Translations under genes and position numbers: made by a program
Source of the DNA: Schmidtea nova
Lineage: Eukaryota
Direction: 5' to 3'
Length of the DNA: 64,000 nt
Assembly: GCA_044892505.1 (NCBI GenBank)
Contig: CM097883.1
Coordinates: forward strand, 351,354,001-351,418,000
Shown: positions 12,752 to 19,500 of the stretch, in pieces
Position numbering within the stretch: position 1 is the stretch's first letter
Layout: every line of letters begins with the position of its first letter
Notes under the pieces: generated by a model
Seen by the model: the letters and a program-made list of their open reading frames with translations, nothing else
What the model was told of the DNA's origin: nothing
Databases searched by the model: none

Positions 12752-13210
12752 TTATATTGCAAATTGTTTTACATAGCTTTTGACAGTCTCGTTATATTCA
12801 TTAATATCGTTAATATATAAATTGGCTGCTTTAGTATTTAATGGGCTGTAAGGATTCGGATCGGCTAACAATGAAATAATTGATATTAAAACTTTGCTGA
12901 TATTTAAACAAGGTGCCCAGTTATCTTTTAGAATGTCTAAACAAATTCCGTTTTTATAAATATTTGGATGAAATATCTTTGTAAGAAATTCTATTCGAGG
13001 AGGTGAAAAAGGATATCTTTCTGGTAAATGTAGTTTCAATTTAAATAAACCCTCTTCAAATGGAGTATCAACAGGACCTTTAATTGTCGCATTCCATATG
13101 TAAATATTATTTTCTTCAGGAGCTGCACTGATTTTTATATCATTATCTGAACATTCTTTTAGCCATTTAATGTCGTTTTTAATTCTAATCATAAACTTGG
13201 AGTTGCTCAT
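12752..13210 (-). CDS. intronless ubiquitin-conjugating enzyme E2 (UBC fold), 152 aa
   Basis: Open ORF from ATG at 13210 with GPVDTPFEEGLF, YPFSPP, FHPN, catalytic Cys in ICLDIL, and W.P...I..VL.SI.SLL.DPN. It has one residue fewer than usual between HPN and the Cys. Confidence 0.92.
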   Translation of the reverse strand: MSNSKFMIRIKNDIKWLKECSDNDIKISAAPEENNIYIWNATIKGPVDTPFEEGLFKLKLHLPERYPFSPPRIEFLTKIFHPNIYKNGICLDILKDNWAPCLNISKVLISIISLLADPNPYSPLNTKAANLYINDINEYNETVKSYVKQFAI

Positions 13211-14673
13211 AACTAACACTAAATATTTTTAAATTGTTATGTTTTTTAAAATAAATAGTACTTAATTAATTAAATAATTTAATTTCGGTGATTTTCATTG
13301 GATTAAATTTTAAAATNNNNNNNNNNNNNNNNNNNNNNNNNNNNNNNNNNNNNNNNNNNNNNNNNNNNNNNNNNNNNNNNNNNNNNNNNNNNNNNNNNNN
13401 NNNNNNNNNNNNNNNNNNNNNNNNNNNNNNNNNNNNNNNNNNNNNNNNNNNNNNNNNNNNNNNNNNNNNNNNNNNNNNNNNNNNNNNNNNNNNNNATGAC
13501 TATAGATCAAAAAATTTTTTTTTTATAAACAACACAATATTTCGGCACAGCCTTTATNNNNNNNNNNNNNNNNNNNNNNNNNNNNNNNNNNNNNNNNNNN
13601 NNNNNNNNNNNNNNNNNNNNNNNNNNNNNNNNNNNNNNNNNNNNNNNNNNNNNNNNNNNNNNNNNNNNNNNNNNNNNNNNNNNNNNNNNNNNNNTGTGCC
13701 GAAATATTGTGTACTTATTTAAAGAAATTTTGATCTAGTCTTACCATTATGGAAATTATTGATATTAATATTAAAAAAGATCAAAGGTGAAACAAAAAGA
13801 AAATTATGATTATATATATACAGGGCCGGCCCGAGCTCTTATGGCGCCCTAGGCCAAGGGTGTAAATCTCGCCCCATAAGTTTTAACAAACAAAAAAAAG
13901 AATCAACTAAAAATTTTTTATTTTGTTATTATGATTGGCAATGCTATATATATATATATATATATTTGGGAAGGCGGTTGTTAAATTATTCTCTAGCAAA
14001 TAGTTTAGAATTGCAGTAGGAGAATCACAACAATCTGTAGACAAATGATTTTTGATGTATTAATTCGTCAAACAAATCCAAGCCGGAAATATCCTTTTGA
14101 TCACCGTCAGTTAGGAGAATACAATCAAATTTTGCATCTGTTCTATAGTCTTCCAGGAACACCATGCTCTTTGATAACAACGTTACTGCTTGGCTCAGGT
14201 TTAAACCAACTTCTTGAAATGCTTTGCTAGTTACAATTATATCAAACAAAATATCATACCATACAATTAAAGAGCAGATAAATTTCTATTTTTCAATATT
14301 TTGCAATATAGCTGTGGCTTCTGACTTGTTCCTCGCTGCTGTGACTGTGGTAACATTAGGTTGCCCATCCTCATTCATACAATCATACAGAGCCGCAATA
14401 ACTTCTTTGAGGTGATATCGTAGAGGCTTTAAAGCATCAATTCAACTGGCCCATCTAATTTCACTTAGACTTTTCAACGTAAAATTAGCTATATATTTTT
14501 TTTAATAAAGCCCAGCGTTGAGTTGACGATGAGAAAAAACATACAAATGCTGAATGATATCTGGTCGCGCCCGCTTTGTAAAATATTAAAAAAATTAATT
14601 AAATAAAAATAAAATAGTTAAAGGCGGGGCTTGATGGCTGTGAGAGATTGTGGGGCGAGCCTGGAAGTCTGAA

Positions 14674-14715
14674 GCCGGTAAACGGTATTATCGAAACCTA
14701 TATAAATCGTATATG
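14674..14715 (+). ncRNA. planarian-type spliced leader (SL) exon, probably a degenerate SL RNA gene copy
   Basis: GCCGGTAAACGGTATTATCGAAACCTATATAAATCGTATATG is 42 nt and ends in ATG as flatworm SLs do. It matches 37/42 of the Schmidtea SL-1 sequence as recalled (GCCGTTAGACGGTCTTATCGAAATCTATATAAATCTTATATG). It is followed by ATATGGCC rather than a GT donor. Confidence 0.8.
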
Positions 14716-14730
14716 ATATGGCCTGTGCAC

Positions 14731-15529
14731 CACAACATGGGCGGTGCGATTGCCATTCATTCTGCTGTTAAATCTGTGATACCTTCACTAGTCGGATTAG
14801 TTGTAATTAATGTTGTTGAAGGATTACATGACGAAATTACACAAGACGAAATTACACGAGACGAAATTACACGGGATGAAATTACACAAGACGAAATTAC
14901 ACTAAAAAATAGTAAAAAATAAAATTAAAAAAATAGTAATTATAACCCTAATAGACGATTAGAGTTTTTGTGGTCAATAGCTCATATTACTTAACATTAA
15001 ATGTTTGATTTCTATTTTTTTACTTTATCTCTCACTATTCATAAAATTAAGAATTATATTATCATTAAAGAGACAAACTAGTAATTTGAATATATTTATT
15101 AATTAATTATTAAATATTATAATTATTTTTTTATTTAAATTTATATTGATTTTTTTATTTAAATTTTTATTATTTTATTATTTAAAATTTTCAATATATT
15201 TAATGCTAAATTTAATACTTAACTTTTACTAATTTTTTAAAAACTTTTTATTAAAACTTTTTACTAATTTTTTTTAAACTTACTATTTTTTAGTGTAATT
15301 TCGTCTCAGTGTAATTTCATCTTGTGTAATTTCGTCTCAGTGTAATTTCATCTTGTGTAATTTCGTCTCGTGTAATTTCATCTTGTGTAATTTCGTCTCG
15401 TGTAATTTCGTCTTGTGTAATTTCGTCTTGTGTAATTTCGTCCTGACACATGTTGAAGGATCAGCACTCGGCGCATTATACAGTATGAATAATTATCTTC
15501 ACAGCAGACCGTGTGTTTTCAAATCACTA
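14731..15529 (+). pseudogene. PPME1: protein phosphatase methylesterase 1 (PME-1) fragment split by a MITE
   Basis: HNMGGAIAIHSAVKSVIPSLVGLVVINVVEG|SALGALYSMNNYLHSRPCVFKSL aligns with PME-1 GHSMGGAIAVH...DVVEGTAMDALNSMQNFLRGRPKTFKSL. The catalytic Ser position reads Asn. Confidence 0.85.
14824..15450. mobile_element. 627-bp foldback/MULE-type MITE with arrays of ~15-nt subterminal repeats
   Basis: TGTTGAAGGA is duplicated exactly (14814-14823, 15451-15460). Five copies of GACGAAATTACAC(A/G)(A/G) lie on the left and ten inverted copies on the right, around an AT-rich core. Confidence 0.9.
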
Positions 15530-16107
15530 TTTCATCAGCATCCCAACTCTTGGACTATAGACTTAATCGATTCCTTTAAGTGCTCATCAATTGTCTCCTG
15601 ATTTGTATTACAATTTCAACCGTGCGCCACAACCCCACAGTAACTAGAGAAGCTATCAAAACTGATTCTATTTGTGTGTAACATAAATATCCTATTAGTG
15701 ACAATTCAATTGCTGATTTTTAGGAACTGAATTTGTGATTAATTTAGAATTTAATATTTTTAAAAATTATGGGAATGAAATTTTAATTTTGGTAAATGTT
15801 TTTTTTGGAAAATTAGAAAAATTTGATATTTTGATTTAAAGTAGAAAACAAAGTTTTTTAAAGTAGTTGTTTAAAATTGTCATTTGTAATTTAGAGTTTG
15901 TGTAAGAATTTAAAAATGTATTTGTAATTTGGGCTTAATAATTTTAATTTAATTGGGATTTTAAATTTTGATGAGTGGAAAATAAATTGGATGGTTTATG
16001 ATTTATTGGGTTTTTCCATTTCTATCACAATATCAATAGACATAGAGATTTTTTATTCTGGATTTACGGATCTGAAGGAATCATTAATTTAATCAATTAT
16101 TGAGCAA

Positions 16108-16554
16108 TTGGGAAGTGATATTGAAGGGGCAGAATTATTGGATGTTTTGAATAGGTGCAACTATGAGCGTATGAACGAACTAGCTAGTCAATTGTTTGGT
16201 CATATTTCTATCCAGCCTGATAACAAGCAGCAGCTGATTTATGCGTTCCGCCAGGAGGTAAATGATGCTGCTGTTGATAATTGTGAAAGTGAAACAGTTC
16301 CCGTTAATGGGGTAGAGGAGAACATTTGTTTGTCTTCGGATGAGGAGGAAGACATTGGTGGTGATTCCCATTTGTCTTCGTCTGCGTTCTCGTTGGTGTA
16401 CACGGATGATGATAATGATGATGGCGCTGACAGAATCAGGAAGACGCGGATCAGTGACAATCCGGGGAAAGCAGTTATTGGATTGCTGAATGATGATGAT
16501 GATGATGACAATGATTCCGACATCGAAAAAATCAAAAGCGCCTGGCTGGATGAT
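16108..16554 (+). other. acidic ORF fragment of unknown origin at the 3' end of the insert
   Basis: About 150 open codons, higher in GC than the flanks and D/E-rich (SSDEEED, DDDDDDNDSD). No ATG start (TTG) and no family recognised. Confidence 0.4.
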
Positions 16555-19500
16555 ATGATATCAAAAAAGTTATACCTTCAACACAATAGCTGGCAGAATC
16601 ATTCACCACTAAATTTAAGAAATGTGCACTGCAAGGAACAAACAAATCTCTTGGGTTTAAATTAAGAATCCTACTTTGGACACCGCTATGTCGTCCGCGC
16701 ATATTGGAGCCGTTATCATAACTTTGACCTCTCATATTGGCCACTGACAAGTTATTTGACTCGAATACTTCTATAATCTTATCTGTAATTCCATCTCCGG
16801 AACTATTATCAATTTCAATGAAACTTAAGAAATGCTCATGCACCTCAATGTATTTTTCATCACCACTTGGACATACCGCTCGGACAATTAATGACATTTG
16901 CTCAATATGGGAAACATCTGGAGTACAATCAATGATTATTGAATAATATTTATTCAGTTTTATTAAGTTTGTAATATTTTCTTTGACTGCAGAATTTAAC
17001 AACGTAATCATTTCATTTTGAATTCTTTTTGAATTCTGCCCAAGTAATGTACGTGTAATTCTTTATTTTTTATTTGACATACGTGTTCTTTCAAGATTGG
17101 GTCGAATTTGGCTATAAGCTCCACAATTTTTAAGAAATTTCCATTGTTATCTTCATATAACTTATCAGTTGTTCCTCTCAAAGCAAGGTTCTGTGATTAT
17201 TTGTGATTTCAAATAATCTCTCCAATACATTTCGCCAACGTATTGTATTTTCATTCACGAGTTTTTTATTAAATGAGTCAATAGTTTTTCCTTCATTCAA
17301 TCTTCTGACCAAGTCATATTTGGGCCAATATTTTGCGGCCATTTCCCGATATCGGACAAATAGTCTTGGATACTTGGAACAACATCTAAAGAATTATATT
17401 CGGAATTTACCGTTTCCGAATGAGAATTTATGTCAAATGTGTCATCAATGCTATGATCTGATTCGAGATCAGGTTCTGGATTGGAACAATATTCTTCAAC
17501 GTCCAATGATTTCGATGAATTTATCAGATCTGAATCGGTGCAGGTAGACTCTGTCTCAATATGTTGGAGCTCATTTCCCGATTCTGAATCGTCACTTTAA
17601 CGATCAACATTTTCAGATTTAAAAAAAGTAGAAAACTTTTGACATTTTTGTATTTGATTTTCCTGCTCTGCTTTTCTTTTTCTACTTTGGTAGCCACTTA
17701 ATTTTTTTGGAGGCATTATTATGAGTTAAATATAAAGCCTAACAATGTAGAAAAACGAAAGATTAGAACGCTTATATTAAAACAAAGATTTATATCCTAT
17801 TATCTGTCTATAATTTATAGATATTCATTGATATTCATTCATCAATACGCACAACATACCTATTCTTTTTACCGCTGCAACTTCGATTGAATTTTCAAAA
17901 CACTGAACTTTAATTTTAATATCACTGACCACTTACTTTGAAAACTGCAACACTAAATATTATTTTAGAAGTTTAATACTTGTGTAGGTAGTGTTAAAAT
18001 AATATTTATGGTTGCTATGACTACCAACGGTATTTGTGATTAATACGCAGAATATTTTTAAAAATGTAATAATTTACTACTTATTTTAAATAAACGCAAT
18101 TTTTTTATTGCGTACCATAATTTTAATTTACTATTAAGTCTTATAAGCCCTAATATCTTGCGAAGGATTGATTTTATTGTTTTCATATATGGTGCCCCTA
18201 CCAGCCAAGCGACCCAAGCTATGGCCTTACTGGCTCGACTCTAGGGCCGGCCCTATATATATATATATAAAATTTTTAGAAGTACACGAATTTTTTTAAT
18301 TAAACATTATAAAAAAGAAAATTTTTAAATTAAATATAACTATTTCATATTCAAGGTTTATTATTATTTCAAATTTTTAAAAATCAGACGAAATTAAAAT
18401 ATTAAATATATTAAAATCATAAAAATATATTAAGTTGTTCACATTAACTATTTTACTATTACTGATAAAATATTTTTTGAAAAATGCTGTTCGAAAATTT
18501 GTATAAGTAGAGATTCCTAGATCAAGCCCAATATCATAGAGACCTCCCCCATTTTTTGACCAACACAAAGAATTTTCAAAAATCCATTAACCCATTTCAC
18601 ATTTTCTTAATAAATAATGAAAAATTTTTATCTATCTAAAATTGACTAAATAATCTAAATTTACAAAAAGCTAAATTTTTATCTATCTAAAATTGACTAA
18701 ATAATCTAAATTTACAAAAAGCTATTTTACATTCATATCGAAAATGCGACAACAATTTGTAGTTCTGGTATGACACTAGAAAAACGGAAATTATATATAC
18801 TCATTCATTTCTTGACGGTGTACTCAACAGGATTTTATTTGTAATACAGAAATTACCGTGCAAAACAGTGTATAAACGTCATTGTCAACTATAGGGTTAA
18901 AAATCAATAATTGTTGAAATATTTTCAATGTCCGTTTGGTCATAGAATTATATAAAAAATTATCGAATGATTTATTTTTCTTGGATACTGGATATTTTGA
19001 CTTATCTAAAATATACGGGAAGATATTTCTTTTTGAAAATTACTTTTACTTTCCTATAATATTATTATCATTAAAATTCTTCAATATTAAAATAAAATAC
19101 ATGAAATTTTATTTTTTGAACAAACTTTTAAGTGTCTTTGAATTAGTTTATTAATCAGTTTTTGTTTTTCTAGAAATATAAAAAAATTATCGAACTCCAA
19201 AAAGCCCAAACAATTTAATTTTAAACTTAATTTTCAATAACTTTTACTTTTTTTTACACTCATATTATTATTTGCGTAAAATACATACACATTTTAAATT
19301 ATAAATATATGTATAGATATTTACGTAGACTTTTAAACAAATAAGTAGAAAAGAAAGAAATTTTCCTGGTTTTGTTGGAATGTCTTTATTGAGGAAAAGA
19401 TGATAAATCGATTTGCTGTTGATAACTAAAGTGAATGCTGACTCGTTTCCATAGTTTCGAAAAATAGTATTTAAAAGTTAAAATACCTTTAAAAATCACA

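What the first reader, a model, noticed from the sequence alone, without database searches (positions are those of the whole stretch)
14562..16554. TSD-flanked 2-kb cassette headed by a spliced-leader gene-like module and carrying captured host sequence
Seen: the hAT transposase frame is split cleanly, with ATGATATC duplicated (or GCTG(A/G)ATGATAT, 12 bp with one mismatch). Inside, in order, are a 112-bp head with a GC-rich patch just upstream of a 42-nt SL, then ATATGGCCTGTGC, a mid-gene PME-1 fragment, a T/G-rich linker and an acidic ORF. Known: flatworm SLs end in AUG and supply a cap, and some non-LTR clades target SL genes. Inference: the upstream head, plus ATATGGCC (possibly a mutated GTACGGCC donor able to pair with the leader's 5' GCCG), suggest an SL RNA gene promoter and exon rather than a simple trans-spliced cDNA. 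This could be a non-autonomous element that uses an SL gene as promoter, cap and start codon and picks up gene fragments. I do not know of such an element being described.
Basis: partly seen in the sequence, partly recalled or inferred. Interest (0 to 1): 0.8.

Follow-up and report, generated by a model that had tools for sequence, protein, structure and literature searches.

The report
Retrotransposon harvesting spliced-leader mRNA ends
This 2-kb insert is a lone terminal repeat of a flatworm BEL/Pao retrotransposon family whose repeats carry the host's spliced leader followed by the intron-free front ends of dozens of different host mRNAs, likely because the shared leader lets the element's reverse transcriptase jump from any leader-capped mRNA back onto its own RNA.

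Summary
The insert is real, but it is neither an SL-gene cassette nor a one-off. It is a solo LTR of a BEL/Pao family with hundreds of copies. The family has TG...CA ends, a 5-bp target duplication, a tRNA-Met PBS and a PPT; 11 young LTR pairs are 99.7-100% identical, and one copy carries gag and pol.

Each LTR reads: constant 100-112-bp head, host spliced leader, variable cargo. The head does not match the upstream DNA of the true SL RNA genes tested. The cargo starts at the leader's last base and differs between copies (about 50 classes in 157 sites). In 8 of 8 parent genes found it starts at an AG acceptor, and introns are missing (Ciao1, SIKE, PME-1). Two host leader types occur, each matching an SL gene, and one gene was captured with both.

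The window's 'mutated donor' is the first 20 nt of a host mRNA.

Best reading (inferred; no RNA data): the leader serves as the R homology for minus-strand transfer, so any trans-spliced mRNA can donate its 5' end to the LTR. Nine literature searches found no description.

The parts
13821..14561 (-). Host hAT DNA transposon, part left of the insert (TIR CAGGGCCGGCCC at 13821)
14554..14561 (+). Left copy of the duplicated target ATGATATC (the family norm would be the last 5 bp)
14562..14673 (+). LTR head in the U3 position: starts TGGTCGCGCCC, follows the PPT in 3' LTRs; not an SL gene promoter
14674..14715 (+). Host spliced leader, type 1 (5 differences from SL gene L270); inferred start of R
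14716..14735 (+). First 20 nt of a host mRNA, starting exactly after the AG of gene L213 (G000:C2:105.73 Mb); LTR L212 holds a longer piece of the same gene
14736..14822 (+). PME-1 mRNA fragment, internal exon A (parent gene G000:C3:129.55-129.57 Mb)
14823..15450. Nested Mutator-like MITE: 15-bp subrepeats in long inverted arms, 9-bp duplication TGTTGAAGG; seen only in this copy among the 60 loci
15451..15528 (+). PME-1 mRNA fragment, exon B; the 2.1-kb parent intron is absent in family copies
15529..15700 (+). Further stretch shared with family copies, source not identified
15700..16090 (+). T/G-rich linker; a similar tract precedes the long ORF in most young LTRs; function untested
16093..16550 (+). 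Acidic ORF; in natural 5' LTR L060 this frame is in phase with the PBS-spanning frame that leads into gag in young copies; no homologue found
16551..16562 (+). Filler TGAT plus right copy of ATGATATC, in place of the family's terminal GTCAACCA and 5-bp duplication
16555..18255 (-). Host hAT DNA transposon, part right of the insert (DUF4371 frame, right TIR)

Best explanation
The insert is a solo LTR of a BEL/Pao retrotransposon family whose LTRs consist of a short constant head, the host spliced leader and a mosaic of intron-free host mRNA fragments, and the leader likely acts as the R homology that lets reverse transcriptase move from any trans-spliced host mRNA back onto the element's own RNA. 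Shown: the LTR anatomy, family membership, cargo starting at AG acceptors, lost introns, two leader types, and cargo swaps on near-identical backbones. Inferred steps: (1) the element's RNA begins at or near the leader and carries head plus leader again at its 3' end; (2) minus-strand synthesis primed by tRNA-Met copies the PBS-proximal part of the LTR and switches at a short homology to a co-packaged host mRNA; (3) it runs to that mRNA's leader and re-anneals through the shared leader to the 3' end of the element RNA; (4) both new LTRs then carry the new mRNA 5' end next to the leader, with older captures further down; (5) LTR-LTR recombination leaves solo LTRs like this one. The window's lineage took a PME-1 piece first, then the 20-nt start of gene L213, and later a MITE.
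For: Family and ends: 1086 first-look candidates for the head, 40 scored at 94-100%; TGGT...ACCA ends and 5-bp duplications. LTR element: 11 pairs 99.7-100% identical, PBS after the 5' copy and PPT before the 3' copy; the PBS matches tRNA-Met genes; L131 has DUF1759, zf-CCHC, protease, RVT_1, Peptidase_A17 (E 3.9e-47), integrase zinc finger and DUF5641; the window's subfamily sits beside PPT, PBS, gag and pol remains. Cargo: 866 exact leader-core matches; 29 of the first 30 carry the head and fall into 25 cargo clusters; 53 classes in 157 sites. 8 of 8 parents found have AG at the cargo start (UFL1 one T off). Introns absent for Ciao1 (61 bp), SIKE (58 bp) and PME-1. The leader travels with the mRNA: LTR L240 carries the type-2 leader of SL genes L268/L269 exactly; SIKE occurs with type 1 (2 copies) and type 2 (6 copies). 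Swaps: L138 and L141 are 99% identical beyond about 490 nt after the leader but differ before. 18 of 20 PPT-anchored pairs share the first 250 nt in both LTRs. Differences from the SL gene cluster in leader positions 1-14 (44, against 13 and 10, in 20 LTRs; not independent). The leader+intronless Ciao1 join is in contigs of 4 DNA-like runs of one study.
Against: No RNA data: the start and poly(A) site of the element's RNA, and trans-splicing of the parent genes, were not observed; R is placed by inference. Parents were not among the loci fetched for 2 of 10 leader-adjacent cargos tested (type-2 cargo L240, 15 of 19 hits fetched; PP2C, 30 of 40 scored of 100 candidates). Some copies have a leader cut short by apparent deletions (L227 class, L254, L264), and 1 of 39 has none (L252). 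Microhomology was inspected closely at only two junctions, with no null test. The copies are related, so counts are not independent events. Only one copy with near-complete pol coverage was seen; of 39 PPT-anchored loci, 3 had pol pieces within 7 kb upstream.
Confidence: 0.8

Rival explanations
1. Same element and cargo, but capture happens at DNA level: cDNA of a trans-spliced mRNA recombines with a genomic LTR through the leader on one side and a short homology on the other, and a later transposition round copies the change to both LTRs.
For: It predicts the same final sequence; leader homology of 19-42 nt is available.
Against: It predicts fresh elements with discordant LTRs. 11 of 11 young pairs and 18 of 20 PPT-anchored pairs agree; the two exceptions are short 88-94% partial heads 1.5 kb away.
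Confidence: 0.1
2. An LTR with a leader and a splice donor inserts upstream of host genes and is cis-spliced onto their trans-splice acceptors, as reported for ta-TRIM solo LTRs in Echinococcus; the chimeric RNA is then copied.
For: PMC4558846 (passages read) shows an LTR transcript cis-spliced to a trans-splice acceptor. Cargo does start at acceptors.
Against: No LTR with leader plus SL intron was found: of the 34 of 39 leader+GT hits fetched, 3 were true SL genes without the head and the rest had unrelated cargo; 6 of 8 hits were headless SL genes. Two leader types match two SL genes. None of the 8 parents has the head directly upstream.
Confidence: 0.04
3. One reading: a non-autonomous cassette built on an SL RNA gene promoter and exon, moved with an 8-bp duplication.
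For: The leader is near-perfect and ATGATATC is duplicated in this copy.
Against: The head is unlike SL gene upstream DNA and follows a PPT. The family duplication is 5 bp. ATATGGCC is a host exon start. The internal region is BEL/Pao.
Confidence: 0.02

Closest known systems
BEL/Pao LTR retrotransposons; planarian families placed in superfamily Flow (PMC3118150, passages and supplement tables seen)
   Same: LTRs, PBS, PPT, DUF1759 gag, zinc knuckle, protease, RT, Peptidase_A17, integrase, DUF5641; best homologues are BEL/Pao polyproteins at 42-52%.
   Different: The LTR holds the host leader and changing host mRNA 5' ends; a long ORF starts inside the LTR, reads through the PBS and carries an HSP90 piece and ubiquitin before gag. 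Superfamily not tested; the paper's sequence file was unreadable, so its planarian elements could not be checked for the leader.
LTR-mediated retroposition by template switching (PMC5131818, passages seen; Bs1 of maize as cited there)
   Same: Intron-free partial mRNAs, several genes chained, short homology at switch points, further rounds as non-autonomous elements.
   Different: There the retrocopy replaces internal ORF sequence between LTRs and needs two chance homologies. Here it sits inside the LTR, one end is fixed at the trans-splice site, and about 50 sources were seen in a small sample.
Leader-bearing retrocopies, and partial leaders near LTR/LINE repeats in parasitic flatworms (PMC12582326, passages and section 6 read)
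   Same: Genomic leader copies that are not SL genes, associated with retroelements (597 loci discarded there).
   Different: Read there as trans-spliced transposon transcripts that integrated; no LTR anatomy or host-gene capture was described in the part read.
SL-gene-targeting non-LTR elements (NeSL, SLACS/CZAR/CRE; recalled, no call)
   Same: A retroelement tied to the spliced leader.
   Different: Those insert into SL genes by target-primed reverse transcription. This family has LTRs and an integrase, and inserts at scattered sites.

Membership tests
BEL/Pao LTR retrotransposon | Paired direct LTRs with TG...CA ends | tested here: met
   11 pairs 99.7-100% identical; the window copy has the TG end but has lost the CA end
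BEL/Pao LTR retrotransposon | Short target duplication (about 5 bp; norm recalled) | tested here: met
   5 of 5 bases in L032, L034, L036, L038, L135, L136, L137, L256, L259; 4 of 5 in L049; 3 of 5 in L046, L058; no match in L141
BEL/Pao LTR retrotransposon | tRNA primer-binding site and polypurine tract | tested here: met
   PBS complementary to genomic tRNA-Met(CAT) genes; 166 exact PPT+head joins
BEL/Pao LTR retrotransposon | DUF1759/CCHC gag, then PR-RT-RH-IN with Peptidase_A17 and DUF5641 | tested here: met
   L131, in three separate frames in that copy; pol remains upstream of a window-subfamily LTR, L244
BEL/Pao superfamily Flow | Phylogenetic grouping with Flow families | not tested
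   No reference sequences obtained
SL RNA gene | Leader followed by GT donor, Sm-like U tract and 3' hairpins | tested here: not met
   True genes L109, L268-L273 have these; the window has a host exon start instead
SL RNA gene | Upstream region shared with SL genes | tested here: not met
   Only matches of 13 nt or less, nearly all AT-rich, to L109; head motif absent at gene types 1-3
LTR-mediated retrocopy (PMC5131818) | Intron-free mRNA origin | tested here: met
   Ciao1, SIKE, PME-1
LTR-mediated retrocopy (PMC5131818) | Microsimilarity at switch points | tested here: inconclusive
   6 nt at the Ciao1 3' junction; a CACA match at the L213/PME-1 junction; no null test
LTR-mediated retrocopy (PMC5131818) | Retrocopy replaces internal ORF sequence between the LTRs | tested here: not met
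   Leader-adjacent cargo is inside both LTRs; the internal HSP90 and ubiquitin pieces do fit this pattern
Non-autonomous hAT or other TIR element | Terminal inverted repeats with 8-bp duplication | tested here: not met
   Only TGGT/ACCA is inverted; the family duplication is 5 bp
LTR with the leader as R | RNA 5' end at the leader and leader repeated at the RNA 3' end | not testable with these tools
   No RNA holder listed; laid runs behaved as DNA

The most novel reading that the evidence does not exclude
A retrotransposon lineage has adopted the host spliced leader as its R sequence. Every trans-spliced mRNA then becomes a legal template for first-strand transfer, and the LTR becomes a continuously rewritten mosaic of host mRNA 5' ends, some translated through the PBS as N-terminal fusions to ubiquitin-Gag. 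This would be a programmed gene-capture and host-mimicry system, perhaps shared with related BEL elements elsewhere (P0002 and P0007 also have a host-like N-terminus, a PBS-like GSRA peptide and ubiquitin before gag).
Probability: 0.7. Interest if true: 0.92.

Novelty: new variant of a known kind. Interest (0 to 1): 0.84.

Why it matters
It would give LTR elements a general, fixed-end route to capture host genes in animals with trans-splicing, instead of rare double chance switches. The genome then stores a dated, base-exact record of which mRNAs were trans-spliced, and with which leader type, in the cells that pass on insertions. It makes testable whether host-like LTRs escape piRNA silencing or produce small RNAs against housekeeping genes (Ciao1, UFL1, SMC2, VPS45, PME-1). 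It is also a practical trap: in the sample examined nearly all genomic leader matches are LTRs, not SL genes, and their cargo mimics partial gene duplicates. It may explain the leader fragments near LTRs that were discarded in parasitic flatworms (PMC12582326).

Tried and rejected
Rfam scan of 14000-17000: three sub-threshold chance hits, no SL family. Pfam Abhydrolase_6 genome search did not locate the PME-1 parent; P0001 as query did. The 20-nt spacer is absent from 20 kb of the PME-1 gene. Acidic ORF: no Pfam hit, no homologue, Atlas scores 0.79 or lower, and only repeat-driven chance hits to bacterial Ig/PKD proteins. RNA: no RNA holder listed; the four runs laid cover introns and intergenic DNA, so they say nothing on expression. 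No match for the head in plasmids, or for the leader core in metagenome or viral contigs; these say nothing on other flatworms. A third leader type in the L227 class was first suspected, then dropped: no AG-preceded parent, and it looks like a deletion, as in L254. Trans-splicing of the element's own RNA at internal AGs: no case among the cargo starts compared. No earlier scan findings. PMC3994195 was not held.

Full report
OBSERVATION. The insert lies in a hAT transposase (DUF4371). Eleven of 11 other hAT copies fetched read through the site uninterrupted, so 14562-16554 is an insertion and ATGATATC is duplicated. The head, 42-nt leader, PME-1 piece, T/G-rich linker and acidic ORF are there. 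It has 15-bp subrepeats in inverted arms, belongs to a young family (104 candidates, 40 scored at 98-100%) and makes 9-bp duplications, which is Mutator-like by recalled rule. That the leader is of planarian type is recalled; what the calls show is that it matches this genome's own SL RNA genes.

IT IS A FAMILY OF LTRs. The head gave 1086 first-look candidates (40 scored, 94-100%) and the acidic end 150. Copies start TGGT and end ACCA. Where flanks are not microsatellite, 5-bp duplications are perfect in 9 copies, partial in 3 and absent in 1. The window copy lacks the last 8 bases and has a flank-like filler, which explains its atypical 8/12-bp repeat. In the window's own subfamily L020 and L048 follow a polypurine tract, L060 precedes a PBS, L061 holds two copies around ubiquitin and gag frames, and L244 lies downstream of pol remains. 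Of 14 stretches fetched around same-strand leader pairs, 11 are LTR-internal-LTR elements with 99.7-100% identical LTRs; one is a tandem duplication and two were extension stretches. The PBS is complementary to genomic tRNA-Met genes (ARAGORN called tRNA-Met in 1 of 2 loci scanned), and 166 exact PPT+head joins exist. L131 encodes the BEL/Pao domain set in three frames, and its closest database relatives are BEL/Pao polyproteins. Most copies lack pol: 3 of 39 PPT-anchored loci had pol pieces within 7 kb.

THE HEAD IS NOT AN SL PROMOTER. A leader+GT search gave 39 hits, of which 34 were fetched. Three are true SL genes with GT donor, U tract and hairpins, and no head (L109). A second search found types 2 and 3, also headless. 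The head matches L109 only by runs of 13 nt or less.

THE CARGO IS THE 5' END OF TRANS-SPLICED mRNA. The type-1 leader core has 866 exact matches. Of the first 30, 29 carry the head, and the sequence diverges right after the leader's ATG into 25 clusters (two pairs of clusters share their first 15-17 nt). Over all loci then held, 157 sites gave 53 classes, one being the SL genes and at least two deletion derivatives. Pfam recognised 8 of 24 cargo ORFs scanned (UFL1, SMC, SIKE, MIB_HERC2, Sec1, LEM, FKBP, alpha/beta hydrolase), plus WD40 for the Ciao1-like cargo. The gene names Ciao1, SMC2, VPS45, PP2C and PME-1 are recalled likenesses. Parents were sought for 10 leader-adjacent cargos and found for 8; all 8 have AG immediately before the cargo start (UFL1 differs by one T in a run). 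Introns are missing from the LTR copies of Ciao1 (61 bp), SIKE (58 bp) and PME-1 (2.1 and 4.4 kb; the second seen in the longer copy L182). The leader+intronless Ciao1 join is also in contigs of four DNA-like runs from one study, so it is unlikely to be an assembly error, though those runs may not be independent of the assembly.

THE WINDOW'S OWN HISTORY. The 20 nt after the leader are the exact start of host gene L213 after its AG, and LTR L212 holds about 200 nt of that gene. The PME-1 piece follows at a CACA match. LTR L182 carries the same join with about 800 nt of spliced PME-1, so the window's subfamily is a shortened descendant. In natural copy L060 the acidic frame is in phase with the PBS-spanning frame that runs into ubiquitin and gag in young copies.

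MECHANISM. Three observations point to a jump at the leader during reverse transcription. First, the leader type follows the cargo: L240 carries the type-2 leader exactly, all 15 fetched copies of that cargo have a type-2-like leader, and SIKE appears with both types behind the same head. Second, cargo is swapped on near-identical backbones: L138 and L141 are 99% identical beyond about 490 nt, and L133 combines the L141 cargo with the L128 backbone. Third, both LTRs of an element carry the same cargo (11 of 11; 18 of 20). Differences from the SL gene concentrate in the first third of the leader (44, against 13 and 10, in 20 related LTRs selected with a filter on the 3' part), as expected if the crossover falls early in the leader; this is weak support. 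By established retroelement biology, minus-strand strong-stop DNA needs homology (R) to reach the RNA 3' end. A leader placed at the U3 border supplies that homology to every trans-spliced mRNA. The RNA start, the poly(A) site and co-packaging are inferred, not seen.

AGAINST AND OPEN. No RNA run was available. Two parents were not found. Leader-truncated copies exist. Junction homology was not tested against a null. DNA-level recombination with cDNA would give the same end product. Range beyond this genome is untested; P0002 and P0007 are only a hint.

LITERATURE. Nine full-text searches found no description of a leader inside an LTR or of leader-mediated capture; most subscription papers, RepBase and Dfam were not searchable. 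Seen: PMC5131818 (passages), template-switch retrocopies between LTRs; PMC12582326 (passages, section 6), 597 discarded partial-leader loci near LTR/LINE repeats; PMC4558846 (passages), an LTR cis-spliced to a trans-splice acceptor; PMC11410931 (passages), no occurrence of 'spliced leader' or 'trans-splic' in the main text; PMC3118150 (passages, supplement tables), planarian Flow families, whose sequence file S1 could not be read and may hold related elements.

VERDICT. A member of BEL/Pao and a variant of LTR-mediated retroposition, with an LTR design I could not find described: head, host leader, mosaic of mRNA 5' ends. The anatomy is shown; the leader-as-R mechanism is about 0.8 likely. Interest 0.84.

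Noticed in passing
L128, L130, L131, L133, L135, L136, L138, L141: ORFs of 611-1578 codons begin inside the 5' LTR, read through the PBS (GSRAW peptide) and run into gag-region sequence. The five scanned all carry an HSP90 fragment and ubiquitin; FHA or FKBP pieces occur in the LTR part. There are 15-29 upstream ATGs between leader and first Met, so the T/G linker may help translation or processing.
   Followed up: partly
P0002, P0006, P0007: Unnamed BEL/Pao polyproteins, 47-52% identical to the L131 pol, also carry ubiquitin before gag; P0002 and P0007 show a PBS-like IGSRA peptide after host-like sequence.
   Followed up: partly
flanks of many copies: Insertions sit very often in (TAA)n or (TA)n microsatellites; not tested against background.
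   Followed up: no
head/leader border, window 14659-14673 and many loci: A GCC(T)G(G)AA unit occurs in one or two copies just before the leader, giving heads of about 100-112 bp, as slippage at the jump site would.
   Followed up: no
L251 leader: Four A-to-G changes (plus one T-to-G) in the leader, ADAR-like.
   Followed up: no
G000:C2:408.59, 409.01 and 411.65 Mb (L109, L268-L273): Six SL RNA genes of three leader types found; types 1 and 2 were seen in LTRs, type 3 not in the loci held.
   Followed up: partly
G000:C1:510.09 Mb onward: tRNA-Met genes in a 458-bp tandem array; 1034 exact matches to the tRNA 3' motif genome-wide.
   Followed up: no
window 12752-13228 (-): Intron-free ORF of 158 codons resembling a ubiquitin-conjugating E2 (recalled resemblance, not scanned).
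   Followed up: no
G000:C1:139.08-139.11 Mb: Six PPT+head joins at 5.3-kb spacing: a tandem array of the element.
   Followed up: no
L063, L132: ORFs resembling Polinton/adintovirus capsid, ATPase and DNA polymerase genes (recalled resemblance, not scanned).
   Followed up: no
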